NCBI GenBank assembly: GCA_964600735.1
Contig: CAZRLL010000003.1
Location: 20,544-84,543, forward strand
DNA length: 64,000 bases
Source: an uncultured archaeon
GTDB taxonomy: Archaea > Asgardarchaeota > Heimdallarchaeia > Heimdallarchaeales > Kariarchaeaceae
Direction of reading: 5' to 3'
Positions 20,921-38,171 of this stretch are shown piece by piece. Position 1 is the stretch's first letter. Each line of letters starts with the position of its first letter. The notes under the pieces are model-generated. The model did no database searches, was not told the origin of the DNA, and saw only the letters and a program-made list of their open reading frames with translations. The position numbers were made by a program, and so were the translations under genes.

Positions 20921-21007
20921 CGAGTATGGTGGGATTCGAACCCACGACCCCTGGCTTACTCCATGAAATTTAGGAGGCCAGTGCTCTTCCAGCTGAGCTA
21001 CATACTC
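20921..21007 (-). tRNA. tRNA-Arg(CCT) with 14-nt canonical intron
   Basis: Reverse complement folds as GAGTATG-TA-GCTC..GAGC-A-CTGGC-CTCCTA[aatttcatggagta]A-GCCAG-GGGTC-GTGGG-TTCGAAT-CCCAC-CATACTC-G; intron 20957-20970; CTCC/GGAG central helix with two 3-nt bulges. Confidence 0.88.
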
Positions 21008-24089: not shown

Positions 24090-27000
24090 TACGAAACGCC
24101 TTGAGCGTAAGTGATCGTGGGCTAAACATTTCGCCGGAGCTCAACGCGCACACCCCGATTCTTTCTAACGGATCTTCTTTCCGTGCTCTCGTCCAGAATA
24201 GAACTTGGTAATCGTCACCGATCCCCAAGAGATAGGAGATTTTATTAATTAAATTAATTTATCTCTAATCTGCTATTCCAGAATGGGTTACTCTTTTTAA
24301 GGACAGCTTCGAGCTTAGATGCATTCAGCTCTTATCTGTAATGGCGTAGCTACCGGGCGATACCTTGTCAGATAACCCGTACACCAGAGGCCACATCAGC
24401 TCGTTCCTCTCGTACTGAAGCCAATTTACTTGCAATAACCCAACAGCCCAGTTAGATAGAAACCAACCTGTCTCACAACGGTCTGAACCCAGCTCACGTT
24501 CCCTATTAACGGGCGAACAACCCTACTCTAGGTGTCTTATGCAACACCAAGCGAGGAAGAGCCGACATCGAGGAAGCAAGCCGCGGGGTCAATATGTCCC
24601 ATTCGAGTCGCAACTCGAAGTGGAATAATCACCGTCATTGAATAATCATAATGCTGGGTATTCAACTTATGCGTTTACATCTGTCGGGTACTTCTCTTCT
24701 CGGGTCAATTGTTTAAGAGAACCTTACCTTGGTCCAACCATCAGCAAGATCATCGAATTTTTTCAAATCCTACTGCTGTGTGAATGTTAGGTTAGATATT
24801 CCTCTTCCCAAAATGACTTTGGAGAAGTTAAGTTATACCCGAAGTGATGTGTATATTACACATAAGCTTTACTACGTTTTTTTGGTGGAAAAGATCTTAC
24901 TAGAAGATCCTCGACAACAAAACAGATTTTAATGAAAAGTTAGAGGTAAAATGACTAAACCACTTATCATGTAAAAAATTACATGAATGTGTGAACTTTA
25001 GCCCGCGACAACTCTGTTACCCCTGAGGTAACTTTTCTGCCACCACCCACGCCAACTAAAAGCAATTGGATGGATCGCTAGGCCCTAGTTTCCTAACAGC
25101 GAGCATTATTGGAGTGCTCACAGTAAAGCCGACTTATGCCCTTGCACTCTACGGAGGATTTCTGTCCCTCCTGAGTCGACCTTTGGGCGCCTCTGTTTCC
25201 TTATCGGAGGCGTGCCGCCCCAGCCAAACTGTCCACCACCAGGTGTCCCCGTCGCAACGGGTGAGCCTAACCAATCTTCGAAGTTAGTGTTCCATTGTTG
25301 ACTCCACAGTACCCGGGGATACTGCTTCAAAGTCTCCTAACTACGCTCTGTACGAAAATCGAATAAACAACTGGAAGCTACAGTAAAGCTCTCAGGGTCT
25401 TCTCTTCCCAACTGGGCAATCCGGTCTGTTCGCCGGATCGCAGGTTCACTGGATTCTAGGCAGGGACAGTGGCAACCTCGTTGGTCCCTTCATGGACGTC
25501 GGTAATTATCCGACAAGGCATTTGCCTACCTTAAGAGAGTCATGGTTACTCCCGCTGTTAACCAGAGCTTAGCCCGGTTGAACCCGGATTTGACTTACTG
25601 GCACGGAGCAGGATTCACAAACTATACAAAGCTTTTCAGCGTAGCAGTTTGCTATGTTTTTGTTAAACAGTCGGGTTGCCTATGTTAGTGACACCTTCGC
25701 ACGCGTTAACATGTAAAGGCAGCGATTATCCCTAAGTTACTCGCCTAATTTGCCGAATTCCCTTGCCTACATTACTCCAAAAGATCTTAGCGTTCTACGC
25801 CTAAGGACACCCGTGTCGGTTTAGGTACGGACGCGCAGTATTAGAAGAAATCATTTTCATGGGCTTTTGGAAATCAACTTTACCTACCACTATTGGTGGG
25901 CCATTCGTAGTTTTATCCGGTTCTCAGCGCAACGCTACTCCCCGGATTTATGTACTTAGTCTGGACGACGATCCAGAAAAGCCTATCCGCAAGCGTCTGA
26001 TTCCTTCCTATTGTTGCCAACTTTCATGCGCGGTACGGGAATATGAACCCGTTTCCCTTTCGTCATAATCATATTAAGACTAGACTTAGGACCGACTTAC
26101 CCTGGGCCGATTGACGTTGCCCAGGAACCCTTGCCTTTTCGATCTATACGGTTCTCACGTATACTTCTGCCTACTACTACCAGGATCTGCACATCAGCAA
26201 GGTCCACAGGTTATCACCAACCTGCTTCACCCCTAACTGATCGAAAGTCTACCGGATCATACCTTGCGGTATGCCTTTGGGTATCGGGAGTCAGTTTTAG
26301 TCCCGTCCATTTTCAGGGCCGTAACGCTCGATGGTTAAACTAGTACGTACTTTTTAATGGATAGCTGTTTCTAAGCTTACCATGCCATTGTCTTAGCGAT
26401 ACGACGCCCTTCATTTTTACACTTAACTGACATTTAGGGCCCTTAACCCAAATCTAGCTTATTCGCTTCGCGGCGATCACCCTTACGGCGACCCGCCCGA
26501 CTGCAGGGGTCTACATAGATCTGACATTCGGAGTTAGATGATGTGGTGAGGATTTCACTCCCCATTCCGACATTGTCTGTACTCTACCTTCAGATCCTAT
26601 TCGCCCAACGCTGGACTGCGGCTCCACTTTGACTTTAATGTGCTATCAGGAGACTCGATTAGCCTTTGACTCCTAAACGCAGCTCAGAGGATCGAGTTGC
26701 ATATCAGAACCCCTTCGGTCCTCCACCGCGGTTTCCCGCGGCTTCAACCTGGCCACGCTTAGATCGTCTCCTTTCGCATCTTATCCGAGTGATTTCACGC
26801 CCTTTCAGACGTCGTCCCTCACATGCAAGCATGTTGCGGACTGATTGGTTTCCCTAAGACTTAGATATCACCTTGGTCTCACCACTCAGATAAACTCCCT
26901 GGCCAGTGTTTCAAGACTGACGTAATGACGCCGGTAAACTGAATTCCCGTTCGATCGTCACCAATCTTAGGTTCATTCAGTCTCTTTCCTTTCACGCCAT

Positions 27001-27572
27001 TACACACTTTAAGCACATAATTTCAAGCTCTTTTCACTGCGTTTTACCGCTACTTTTCACCTTTTACTCACGTTACTAGTTCTCTATCGGTCTGAGATTA
27101 ATATTTAGGTTTTCGAATTAGTTCTCGAAGTTTGGACGCAATTCCCAATGCGCCCTAGTCTGGGTTACAAAACTCATAGCAGCAGACTCACACCTACGGG
27201 GCTATCACCCTCTATGGCCCCCTTTTCCAAAGGAGTTCGGTTTATGTCTGGTAAGCGTTGGTTTTGACCCACAACACCACATCTATAATTTTTTTCAAAA
27301 TAATATTCGGTTTGACCTGTTTCCTGTTTACTCGCCGTTACTAAGGAAATCGCGATTGCTTTCTTTTCCTCCACCTACTTGAATGCTTTCGTTCGGTGGG
27401 TTCCCTTCCTCTAATGAGGATCTATATGCTTCTTGGACATATAGAAGAATCTTATTCGGGCATCTTAGGATCGAAGGCTGCCTGCGCCTACCCTAAGCTT
27501 ATCGCAGCTTGCCACGCCCTTCATCGGTTTCTCAGCCAAGGTATCCATTATGTGCTGTTTGGCAGAATCGTA
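24090..27572 (-). rRNA. rrl: 23S (LSU) rRNA, ends approximate (within about 20 nt), interrupted by a ~397-nt insertion
   Basis: Minus strand contains universal LSU blocks: GGATACCTTGGC...GATGAAGGGCGTGGCAAGCTGCGATAAGC near the 5' end, GACTGTTTAACAAAAACATAG, GGGGTAACAGAG, CCTCGATGTCGGCTC, GTTCAGACCGTTGTGAGACAGGTTGG, AGTACGAGAGGAAC, GCTGAATGCATCTAAGC. Confidence 0.95.
24595..24991 (-). other. Intervening sequence (probable intron) in the 23S rRNA helix-89 loop, no ORF
   Basis: The conserved loop ...GCGGGC-TAAAG-TTCA / TATTGAC-CCCGCGG... is split by 397 nt of AT-rich non-rRNA sequence; junction ambiguous by 2 nt because CA is repeated. Confidence 0.7.
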
Positions 27573-38083: not shown

Positions 38084-38171
38084 TGGACTGGACGGGATTT
38101 GAACCCGCGGCCGCTTCGGTTCTTGTAAAAAAATGCAAGCGAAGCGCTCTACCAGTCTGAGCTACCAGCCC
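38084..38171 (-). tRNA. tRNA-Ala(TGC) with 14-nt canonical intron
   Basis: GGGCTGG-TA-GCTC..GAGC-G-CTTCG-CTTGCA[tttttttacaagaa]C-CGAAG-CGGCC-GCGGG-TTCAAAT-CCCGT-CCAGTCC-A; G3:U70 alanine identity pair; intron 38121-38134; CTTG/CAAG central helix. Confidence 0.9.

What the first reader, a model, noticed from the sequence alone, without database searches (positions are those of the whole stretch)
24595..24991. About 397-nt ORF-less intervening sequence in the 23S rRNA helix-89 loop, next to the peptidyl-transferase region
On the minus strand the universally conserved block reads GGGGTAACAGAGTTGTCGCGGGC-TAAAG-TTCA. It is then interrupted by 397 nt of AT-rich sequence and resumes with TATTGAC-CCCGCGGCTTGCTTCCTCGATGTCGGC. 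Joining the flanks reproduces the canonical loop (compare E. coli CCGCCC-AAGAG-UUCAUAUCGAC-GGCGG, about positions 2468-2483 by my recollection). An insertion this large in H89 is unlikely to be tolerated in a mature ribosome, so splicing or excision is expected. Archaeal rRNA introns usually use a bulge-helix-bulge (BHB) motif and often carry LAGLIDADG genes. Here there is no ORF of 60 aa or more on the rRNA strand. I also could not draw a strict BHB at the junctions by eye: exon -6..-3 does not pair with intron -6..-3 for any of the three possible junction registers.
Basis: partly seen in the sequence, partly recalled or inferred. Interest (0 to 1): 0.6.

Follow-up and report, generated by a model that had tools for sequence, protein, structure and literature searches.

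The report
Spliced archaeal intron in 23S helix 89
The 397-base insert in this Heimdall-group (Asgard) archaeon's only large-subunit rRNA gene is an ordinary archaeal bulge-helix-bulge intron, removed by the tRNA-splicing enzyme, at a site beside the ribosome's catalytic centre that many Asgard archaea share but that I found described in no paper.

Summary
The insert is real. Infernal places 399 nt where the archaeal LSU model has 2, in the helix-89 loop. It has no ORF and no Rfam family.

Intron-less relatives and RNA contigs show that the native loop is GUUCACAUUGAC, not GUUCAUAUUGAC. The intron is therefore window 24594-24990 (minus strand), between E. coli 23S positions 2477 and 2478.

In that register the junctions form a textbook hBHBh' motif:
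- a central 4-bp helix, GUUC/GGAC;
- two 3-nt bulges, AC|A and AU|A;
- a 5-bp inner helix;
- H89 itself as the outer helix.

Seventeen distinct introns at the same site were compared (Heimdall families, Thorarchaeota BC, a Helarchaeote). They keep all 68 of 68 central-helix pairs, with compensatory changes.

Four marine-sediment metatranscriptomes hold contigs about 99-100% identical to the exons that read ...GCUAAAGUUCAC|AUUGACC... They show zero depth on the intron. Eight DNA metagenomes hold only the intron-bearing form.

The genome encodes two EndA paralogues and RtcB. A group I intron, a retained expansion and fragmentation are all disfavoured.

Verdict: a new member of a known kind, at an apparently undescribed but Asgard-wide site. 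Interest is modest.

The parts
24092..27569 (-). Stand-alone archaeal 23S (LSU) rRNA gene, host of the intron. It is the only LSU copy found in the assembly.
   Evidence: RF02540, 2395.5 bits, model 1-2987. Only one locus in the own genome matches the joined exons.
24594..24990 (-). 397-nt ORF-less BHB intron, inserted between E. coli 23S positions 2477 and 2478 (H89 loop).
   Evidence: Infernal insert. The BHB scanner picks this register. The RNA joint skips exactly 397 nt, 24592->24990 with 1 nt of ambiguity. An RNA contig reads GUUCAC|AUUGACC.
24993..24996 (-). Exon strand of the central 4-bp BHB helix (GUUC, E. coli 2472-2475).
   Evidence: Pairs with GGAC at 24596-24599. 68 of 68 cells are paired across 17 distinct introns, with U-A<->C-G exchanges.
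24990..24992 (-). 5' splice-site bulge AC|A, with the cut after 24991.
   Evidence: The geometry is the same as in the 14-nt intron of tRNA-Arg(CCU) in this window, CUCC(UA|A)...GGAG(UA|A).
24985..24989 (-). Inner helix h', 5' strand (CAUUC).
   Evidence: Pairs with GAAUG at 24600-24604. The first four inner pairs are kept in 15-16 of 17 introns, with many pair types.
24600..24604 (-). Inner helix h', 3' strand (GAAUG).
24596..24599 (-). Intron strand of the central BHB helix (GGAC).
   Evidence: Strain variants in DNA runs X2 and X5 change 24598 (RNA G>A), which turns the U.G pair into U-A.
24593..24595 (-). 3' splice-site bulge AU|A, with the cut after 24594.
24582..24592 (-). 3' strand of H89 (UU GAC CCCGCG), which serves as the outer helix of the motif.
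   Evidence: Infernal consensus structure. The outer pairs A-U and A-U are kept in 17/17 and 16/17 introns.
24997..25007 (-). 5' strand of H89 (CGCGGG CUA AA), which serves as the outer helix.
24953..24963 (-). 'Anti-exon' block GUGGUUUAGUC. It is complementary to the 5' exon end (CUAAA..UCAC), is the best-conserved island in the related long introns, and competes with the BHB.
   Evidence: UUUAGUC is shared by 4 of 5 family-f1 introns. It is used by the MFE fold and by RNAalifold. It is the best-ranked exon partner among windows. The energy in this copy is weak.
24602..24619 (-). 3'-terminal hairpin UUCGAGU-UGCG-ACUCGAA, just upstream of and overlapping the inner-helix strand.
   Evidence: RNAalifold: compensatory changes in relatives (GAGU/ACUC, AAGC/GCUU, UGGA/UCCA).
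24701..24790 (-). Internal stretches that resemble the two junctions (CUAACAUUCACACA; ACAAUUGACCC). Status uncertain.
   Evidence: Not significant against shuffles in this copy (72/1000 and 59/1000 shuffles score as well). UCACAC and AUUGACC recur in some relatives.

Best explanation
It is an archaeal bulge-helix-bulge (BHB) intron in the loop of helix 89 of the 23S rRNA.

Proposed mechanism:
- In the precursor, the H89 stem (CGCGGG/CCCGCG plus AA/UU) brings the two junctions together.
- The last 11 nt of the intron (GAAUG-GGAC-AU) pair with the exon's GUUC and with intron bases +2 to +6 (CAUUC).
- This gives two 3-nt bulges on opposite strands, separated by a 4-bp helix.
- The tRNA-splicing endonuclease EndA cuts after the second base of each bulge (AC|A and AU|A). 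Here EndA is inferred to be the (alpha-beta)2 type, from two paralogues.
- RtcB joins the exons to give the native loop GUUCACAUUGAC. The excised intron is presumably circularised and then degraded.

Shown: the motif, its covariation, the ligated RNA product, absence of intron RNA, and the genes for the enzymes.

Inferred: which enzymes act, the timing, and the fate of the intron.
For: 1. Position: 399 nt against 2 nt in the H89 loop, between E. coli 2477 and 2478.

2. Motif: a strict hBHBh' scanner, blind to homology, returns as its top hit the register GUUC(AC|A)CAUUC...GAAUG GGAC(AU|A)UU. That register restores a loop of native length.

3. Comparison: relatives in families f1, f3, f4 and f6 carry inserts of 68-470 nt at the same site. 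So do Thorarchaeota BC (30 nt), a Helarchaeote (96 nt) and other Heimdall MAGs (52 nt). Across 17 distinct introns:
   - the central helix is paired in 68/68 cells, with U-A<->C-G exchanges involving exon bases;
   - the inner helix is paired in 15-16 of 17 per position, with 4-7 pair types.

4. Native loop: intron-less family f2 reads GAGUUCACAUCGAC.

5. RNA: four metatranscriptome runs from three studies have zero depth on 24606-24979. Contigs about 99-100% identical to the exons carry a 397-nt skip. One 316-nt contig reads ...GCUAAAGUUCAC|AUUGACC....

6. DNA: contigs spanning both junctions occur in independent metagenomes, some with diverged variants. None of 8 DNA runs shows the 397-nt skip. 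Intron words occur in 17 DNA runs and in 0 RNA runs.

7. Enzymes: two PF01974 EndA homologues and one RtcB in the genome. Asgard archaea are reported to have (alpha-beta)2 EndA with the L1 loop, which gives broad specificity (PMC5829648).

8. Internal control: tRNA-Arg(CCU) in the same window has a 14-nt intron with the same cut geometry.
Against: - The RNA and DNA runs come from different studies. The spliced contigs could in principle come from a very close intron-less relative. At 98% likeness or more, the RNA runs show no depth on the variable 3' end of this gene (24092-24278), so the expressed strains are not proven identical to this MAG.
- The unconstrained minimum-free-energy fold does not choose the BHB: -128.9 against -123.8 kcal/mol when the BHB is imposed.
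- No intron RNA, linear or circular, was seen, so excision products are unobserved.
- A few relatives (G006, G054, G060) have relaxed rather than strict motifs.
- Enzyme action was not tested.
Confidence: 0.9

Rival explanations
1. It is a self-splicing group I intron, perhaps degenerate.
For: Its size (about 400 nt) and lack of an ORF fit a group I intron. It lies in LSU domain V, where group I introns cluster. Group I introns do occur in archaeal rRNA (PMC6125680) and even in 23S genes of close relatives. An intron element pairs with the 5' exon end, in the manner of a P1/IGS pairing.
Against: - No RF00028 hit up to E=10 in this intron, and none up to E=0.1 in six relatives' loci that include their H89 introns. 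The same model scores 115-117 bits on genuine group I introns elsewhere in two of those genes, which serves as a positive control.
- The observed junction leaves neither a U at the exon end nor a G at the intron end. Any U|...G| choice gives a product different from the RNA contig.
- The exon/anti-exon helix has no consistent U.G pair.
Confidence: 0.02
2. The 397 nt are kept in the mature 23S rRNA as an expansion segment of H89.
For: Asgard LSU rRNAs do carry supersized expansion segments (PMC7594248). The insert folds better than shuffles (z = -5.9).
Against: There is zero RNA depth on the insert in four metatranscriptomes, while the flanking exons have word depths in the thousands. RNA contigs join the flanks precisely. 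No RNA run holds intron words. The H89 loop is universally conserved and lies beside the peptidyl-transferase centre. The length at this site ranges from 0 to 470 nt among relatives, with an unchanged loop after removal.
Confidence: 0.02
3. It is an intervening sequence that is cut out without religation, leaving a fragmented 23S rRNA, as with bacterial RNase III intervening sequences.
For: Removal without ligation would also give zero RNA depth on the insert.
Against: RNA contigs are continuous across the junction, with 22-39 nt on the shorter side. One 316-nt contig carries 283 nt on one side and 33 nt on the other. The motif is a BHB, whose cleavage products are substrates of RtcB, and RtcB is encoded in the genome.
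Confidence: 0.03
4. It is an assembly artefact, or a mobile-element insertion that has inactivated a pseudogene copy.
For: The MAG is fragmented (354 contigs) and the insert is AT-rich like the genome.
Against: Contigs spanning both junctions are found in several independent metagenomes, with strain-level variants. The insert is single-copy in the genome. This is the only LSU gene found. The exons are intact and score as a complete LSU. Homologous inserts sit at the same site in many genomes.
Confidence: 0.02

Closest known systems
BHB introns of crenarchaeal rRNA genes (the Desulfurococcus mobilis 23S intron and Aeropyrum introns, from my own knowledge; Thermoproteales 16S introns, PMC4496867)
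   Same: The host is an rRNA gene and the insertion is in a functionally conserved region. The junctions fold into bulge-helix-bulge with exon-intron pairing. Removal is by the tRNA-splicing endonuclease plus ligase.
   Different: The host lineage is Asgard (Heimdall group), not TACK. I did not find the site (LSU 2477/2478, H89 loop) described. There is no LAGLIDADG gene or remnant. No abundant (circular) intron RNA was seen in public RNA data. Lengths at this site range from 30 to 470 nt.
Canonical archaeal tRNA introns at 37/38 (for example tRNA-Arg(CCU) in this window, 20921-21007)
   Same: The geometry is identical: a 4-bp helix flanked by two 3-nt bulges, cut after the second bulge base. 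Presumably the same enzymes act.
   Different: The intron is 397 nt against 14 nt. The outer helix is an rRNA helix (H89) rather than the anticodon stem.
Group I introns in archaeal LSU rRNA (Nawrocki, Jones and Eddy 2018, PMC6125680)
   Same: These are ORF-less or HEG-bearing introns in LSU domain V of uncultured archaea. They can coexist with BHB introns in one gene. Relatives G006 and G009 carry both kinds.
   Different: There is no group I core and the splice-site bases are wrong. The site is not among the positions I saw in the part of that paper's Table 1 that I read (LSU/2500, LSU/2593).
Other ORF-less BHB introns of Heimdall-group 23S genes (about L2450 and about L2600), seen here in family f2 and noted by earlier agents of this scan
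   Same: Same clade, same gene domain, ORF-less and of similar size.
   Different: The insertion site is different and there is no detectable sequence similarity. In the genomes sampled, family f2 carries the ~L2450 intron but not the H89 one, while G060 and the contig labelled Bathyarchaeia carry both.

Membership tests
Archaeal BHB (splicing-endonuclease) intron | The exon-intron junctions fold into two 3-nt bulges on opposite strands, separated by a 4-bp helix and flanked by helices (hBHBh'). | tested here: met
   GUUC(AC|A)CAUUC ... GAAUG GGAC(AU|A)UU. It is the scanner's top hit. It costs 5 kcal/mol over the MFE when imposed.
Archaeal BHB (splicing-endonuclease) intron | The motif is maintained by compensatory changes in related introns. 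| tested here: met
   17 distinct introns. The central helix is paired in 68/68 cells, with UA/CG and UG/UA/CG exchanges. The inner helix shows 4-7 pair types per position.
Archaeal BHB (splicing-endonuclease) intron | Cleavage in the bulges and ligation give the mature RNA with the native sequence. | tested here: met
   RNA contigs skip exactly 397 nt and read GCUAAAGUUCAC|AUUGACC. This equals the loop of intron-less relatives, apart from the lineage's U/C. Caveat: the RNA and DNA come from different samples.
Archaeal BHB (splicing-endonuclease) intron | The host encodes the EndA splicing endonuclease and an RtcB-type ligase. | tested here: met
   Two PF01974 matches (92 and 58 bits) and one PF01139 match (563 bits) in the own genome.
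Archaeal BHB (splicing-endonuclease) intron | EndA cleaves the substrate at the predicted phosphodiesters and the excised intron is circularised. | not testable with these tools
   No intron-derived RNA in any indexed RNA run. This needs an in vitro assay or circRNA sequencing.
Group I intron | A conserved catalytic core (P3-P9) detectable by a covariance model. | tested here: not met
   No RF00028 match at E up to 10. The model works on real group I introns in relatives' 23S genes (115-117 bits).
Group I intron | The 5' exon ends in U (paired with G in P1) and the intron ends in G. | tested here: not met
   The RNA-defined junction is ...CAC|A...AU|A (or ...CACA|C...UA|U). No U|...G| choice reproduces the RNA.
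rRNA expansion segment | The extra sequence is present in mature rRNA. | tested here: not met
   Zero RNA depth on 24606-24979 in four RNA runs that hold the exons at high depth.
Bacterial-type intervening sequence (fragmented rRNA) | Excision without religation. | tested here: not met
   RNA contigs are continuous across the joint.
Mobile intron with homing endonuclease | A LAGLIDADG or other homing-endonuclease ORF, or a remnant of one. | tested here: not met
   No sense-strand frame wholly inside the intron exceeds 27 aa. The antisense ORFs have no Pfam hit.

The most novel reading that the evidence does not exclude
The long introns at this site may be more than passive inserts. Near their 5' ends they keep an 'anti-exon' element complementary to the last 10-12 nt of the 5' exon:
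- GUGGUUUAGUC here;
- GGAAUUCUAAA in f1g3;
- GGACUUUAGC in G005;
- GAG(U/C)UCUUAC in f4.

This element changes together with the exon sequence between lineages and is absent from the 30-96-nt mini-introns. Because it sequesters the exon half of the BHB, it could act as a co-transcriptional placeholder or timer. It would hold the 5' strand of H89 until the 3' end of the intron is made. This would couple folding of the peptidyl-transferase region to EndA splicing.
Probability: 0.15. Interest if true: 0.55.

Novelty: new member of a known kind. Interest (0 to 1): 0.35.

Why it matters
- Maturation of the region next to the peptidyl-transferase centre in these close relatives of eukaryotes depends on the tRNA-splicing endonuclease and ligase.
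- The LSU 2477/2478 site is occupied in about 21 of 137 sampled Asgard genomes that have the region assembled. That includes every sampled member of four Heimdall-group families.
- rRNA annotation, LSU phylogenies, probe or primer design and rRNA-size comparisons for Asgard archaea must remove this intron, along with several other domain-V introns.
- The case adds to the picture of Asgard archaea as unusually intron-rich in stable-RNA genes.
- It offers a natural series, from 30 to 470 nt, for studying how BHB introns grow or decay.

Tried and rejected
- **Group I intron:** rejected (plus the splice-site bases).
- **Rfam scan of the insert at E up to 10:** only chance miRNA and lncRNA hits.
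- **blastn of the intron against 60 relatives:** no hit. Homology is limited to the termini and a few islands.
- **Metagenome pattern scan with a 16-mer:** far too unspecific. Among the returned loci, only two contained the 3' junction, and they were identical to RS678.
- **Laying RNA reads on the joined exons:** The loose-end consensus gave the junction sequence instead.
- **RNAalifold on a MAFFT alignment of five long introns:** only H89, a 3' hairpin and the exon/anti-exon helix emerge. The alignment is too poor to support an interior fold.
- **Shared k-mers among the five f1 introns:** barely above shuffles, so I do not claim a conserved interior fold.
- **Internal 'copy of both junctions' (24701-24790):** not significant in this sequence.
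- **Exon/anti-exon duplex energy:** not significant for this copy on its own (p=0.85). The support comes only from position and from cross-lineage comparison.
- **ARAGORN:** miscalls the intron-bearing tRNA-Arg as tRNA-Pyl.
Full report
**1. The observation**

Infernal (RF02540) finds a complete archaeal LSU rRNA on the minus strand at window 24092-27569. It is 3478 nt long against a 2987-position model. Run on the sub-region, it puts 399 nt where the model has 2, in the loop of helix 89 at model positions 2571-2574.

- The insert has no meaningful ORF. On the rRNA strand, no stop-to-stop frame wholly inside it exceeds 27 aa. The two antisense ORFs (50 and 67 aa) have no Pfam match.
- It is 36% G+C against 48% for the exons.
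- It is single-copy in the 4.08-Mb, 354-contig assembly.
- This is the only LSU gene found in that assembly.
- After removing 397 nt, the gene exceeds the model by 94 nt. That leaves no room for another intron of comparable length.

**2. The organism**

Earlier agents' notes called the genome Heimdall-group Asgard. I checked this. They include RS678, which is relative G007 in the same family.

**3. Fixing the junction**

Two independent lines show that this lineage has CA, not UA:

- Intron-less relatives of family f2 read GAGUUCACAUCGAC.
- Marine-sediment metatranscriptome contigs with near-identical exons carry a joint 24592->24990 that skips 397 nt, with 1 nt of ambiguity. Examples are 2 differences in 284 nt, 4 in 305 nt, and several pieces with none.
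- One 316-nt contig matches 24561-24593 and continues on the plus strand as GTGAACTTTAGCCCGCGACAACTCTGTTAC. In RNA sense this reads ...GUAACAGAGUUGUCGCGGGCUAAAGUUCAC|AUUGACC....

I checked the numbering on an annotated E. coli rrl gene. The 68-nt PTC/H89 stretch starts at position 2445, so the intron lies between 2477 and 2478.

**4. The motif**

I wrote a strict hBHBh' scanner. It requires a 4-bp helix (G.U allowed), 3-nt bulges, and a cut after the second bulge base, and it scores the flanking helices.

- Its top hit for this sequence is ..AA[GUUC](AC|A)CAUUC...GAAUG[GGAC](AU|A)UU.. It restores GUUCAC+AUUGAC.
- My estimate for a 4-bp helix plus a 5-bp inner helix arising by chance in one given register is about 1.5e-4.
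- The tRNA-Arg(CCU) gene in the same window has a 14-nt intron with identical geometry, CUCC(UA|A)...GGAG(UA|A).

**5. Comparative evidence**

Searching relatives with the joined exons gives split hits at exactly this point:

- family f1: G003-G010, with complete inserts of 186-470 nt;
- family f3: G013, 221 nt;
- family f4: G014, G016 and G018, 329-339 nt;
- family f6: 68-71 nt.

The pattern scan of named genomes adds Thorarchaeota BC (30 nt), Helarchaeota Meg19_1012_Bin_504 (96 nt) and further Heimdall MAGs (52 nt). All have canonical motifs in the same register.

Across 17 distinct introns:

- The central helix is paired in 68 of 68 cells.
- It shows compensatory exchanges that involve exon bases: GUUC/GGAC, GUUC/GAAC, GUCC/GGAU, GCUC/GAGC, GCUC/GAGU.
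- Each of the first four inner-helix pairs is kept in 15-16 of 17 introns, with 4-7 pair types.

Strain variants of this very intron in other metagenomes change G24598 to A, converting U.G to U-A in the central helix.

In a sample of 301 Asgard genomes, 137 have the region assembled and about 21 have the site occupied:

- f1: 8/8
- f3: 1/1
- f4: 3/3
- f6: 5/5
- f5: 1/3
- three genomes in two other families.

**6. RNA against DNA**

- Four RNA runs from three studies have zero depth across 24606-24979, while the exons have word depths in the thousands.
- No RNA run in the index holds intron words, whereas 17 DNA runs from a dozen or more studies do.
- Contigs spanning both junctions occur in DNA runs X1 (identical, probably the source study), X2 and X5 (variants). 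X4 and X6 hold intron pieces.
- None of the eight DNA runs examined shows the 397-nt skip.

Caveats: the RNA and DNA are from different studies. At 98% likeness or more, the RNA runs give no depth on the variable 3' end of the gene. The expressed strains are therefore close to this MAG but not proven identical.

**7. Machinery**

The genome has two EndA-family genes (PF01974, 92 and 58 bits; open frames of 185 and 213 aa) and one RtcB (563 bits). Two paralogues fit the (alpha-beta)2 enzyme with the L1 loop that is reported for Asgard archaea and is linked to broad substrate range (PMC5829648). That these enzymes act on this intron is inferred, not shown.

**8. Rivals**

- *Group I intron.* There is no RF00028 hit in this intron at E up to 10, nor in six relatives' loci at E up to 0.1. 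The same search finds genuine group I introns (115-117 bits) elsewhere in the 23S genes of G006 and G009, so the negative result is meaningful. The RNA-defined splice sites also lack the U...G signature.
- *Retained expansion segment, or fragmentation without ligation.* Both are contradicted by the continuous, intron-less RNA contigs.
- *Artefact or pseudogene.* This is contradicted by independent metagenomes and by the conserved site.

**9. The interior**

The precursor folds better than shuffles (z = -5.9), but I do not claim a conserved interior fold.

- The five long f1 introns share little beyond their termini. UUUAGU and AAUAUC are the only 6-mers common to all five, barely above shuffles.
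- A MAFFT/RNAalifold analysis recovers only H89, a covarying 3' hairpin and one further helix.
- That further helix pairs the 5' exon end (CUAAA..UCAC) with the intron block GUGGUUUAGUC (24953-24963).
- The unconstrained MFE uses this helix and is 5 kcal/mol better than the BHB-constrained fold.

Analogous 'anti-exon' elements sit within the first 40 nt of other long introns at this site, and they match their own exon variants:

- GGAAUUCUAAA against UUAGAGUUCC;
- GGACUUUAGC against GCUAGAGUCC;
- GAG(U/C)UCUUAC against GUAAGAGCUC.

In 8 of 12 long introns, the first 45-nt window is the best exon partner among all windows. The mini-introns lack such an element.

For this copy alone the duplex energy is not significant (p = 0.85). 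I therefore report this as a lead (see the novel case), not a finding.

**10. Literature**

Full-text searches found no description of a BHB intron in H89, or of Asgard 23S BHB introns in general.

- Penev et al. 2020 analysed Heimdallarchaeota RS678 LSU rRNA. They state only that 'known intronic regions' were removed (PMC7594248).
- Nawrocki et al. 2018 describe archaeal group I introns and mention co-occurring BHB introns (PMC6125680).
- The Comparative RNA Web intron tables could not be consulted.
- An earlier agent of this scan reached the same reading for a 362-nt H89 intron in another Heimdall genome.

**11. Verdict**

This is a canonical archaeal BHB intron, with confidence about 0.9. 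It is a new member of a known kind, at an apparently undescribed but Asgard-wide site next to the peptidyl-transferase centre. It would not surprise a specialist. Its value lies in annotation, in documenting the intron load of Asgard rRNA genes, and possibly in the anti-exon element.

Noticed in passing
L004:60-346 (+) and L005:1389-1692 (-), the 23S genes of relatives G006 and G009: Genuine group I introns (RF00028, 114.9 and 116.5 bits, full model length) sit about 0.8 kb upstream of the H89 site. These Heimdall-group 23S genes therefore carry a group I intron and a BHB intron together. The window's own 23S has none.
   Followed up: partly
Relatives of family f2 (e.g. L011, L015, L017), G060 (L035) and L050; phylum survey: Other interruptions of LSU domain V are common in Asgard genomes. 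One of roughly 330-640 nt lies at GGGGUAA|ACAGAG (about E. coli 2450-2451). One of about 150 nt lies near E. coli 2600. Further break points occur at query positions 43-45, 50 and 136/137 of the 202-nt probe.
   Followed up: partly
window 20921-21007 (-): tRNA-Arg(CCU) carries a 14-nt canonical intron, CUCC(UA|A)AUUUCAU GGAG(UA|A). ARAGORN, run without intron handling, miscalls the gene as tRNA-Pyl(cta). Rfam's second tRNA (38084-38171) is also over-long at 88 nt.
   Followed up: partly
window 24092-27569 and flanks: The 23S gene stands alone. Rfam finds no SSU or 5S rRNA anywhere in the 64-kb window.
   Followed up: no
L050 (DATKZI010000020.1, labelled Candidatus Bathyarchaeia): This contig's 23S has the same two introns (about L2450 and the H89 mini-intron) and near-identical junction sequences as Heimdall family f6 (G054, G060). 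The contig may be mis-binned or mislabelled.
   Followed up: no
window 24092-24278: At 98% likeness or more, four RNA runs that hold 100%-identical pieces of domain V show no depth on the 3'-terminal variable (ES39-like, A/U-rich) part of the gene. Either the expressed strains differ there or the region was not assembled.
   Followed up: no
DNA run X7, loose end at window 24599: One metagenome holds both this intron type and, on a contig with near-identical 3' exon, a different 3' intron end that resembles the G006-type intron (CAAGCUGAGGCUUG hairpin). Closely related populations therefore carry diverged introns at the same site.
   Followed up: no
L046 (Acidobacteriota MAG): This is the one non-rRNA chance match to the 25-nt degenerate junction pattern. 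It is of no significance.
   Followed up: yes
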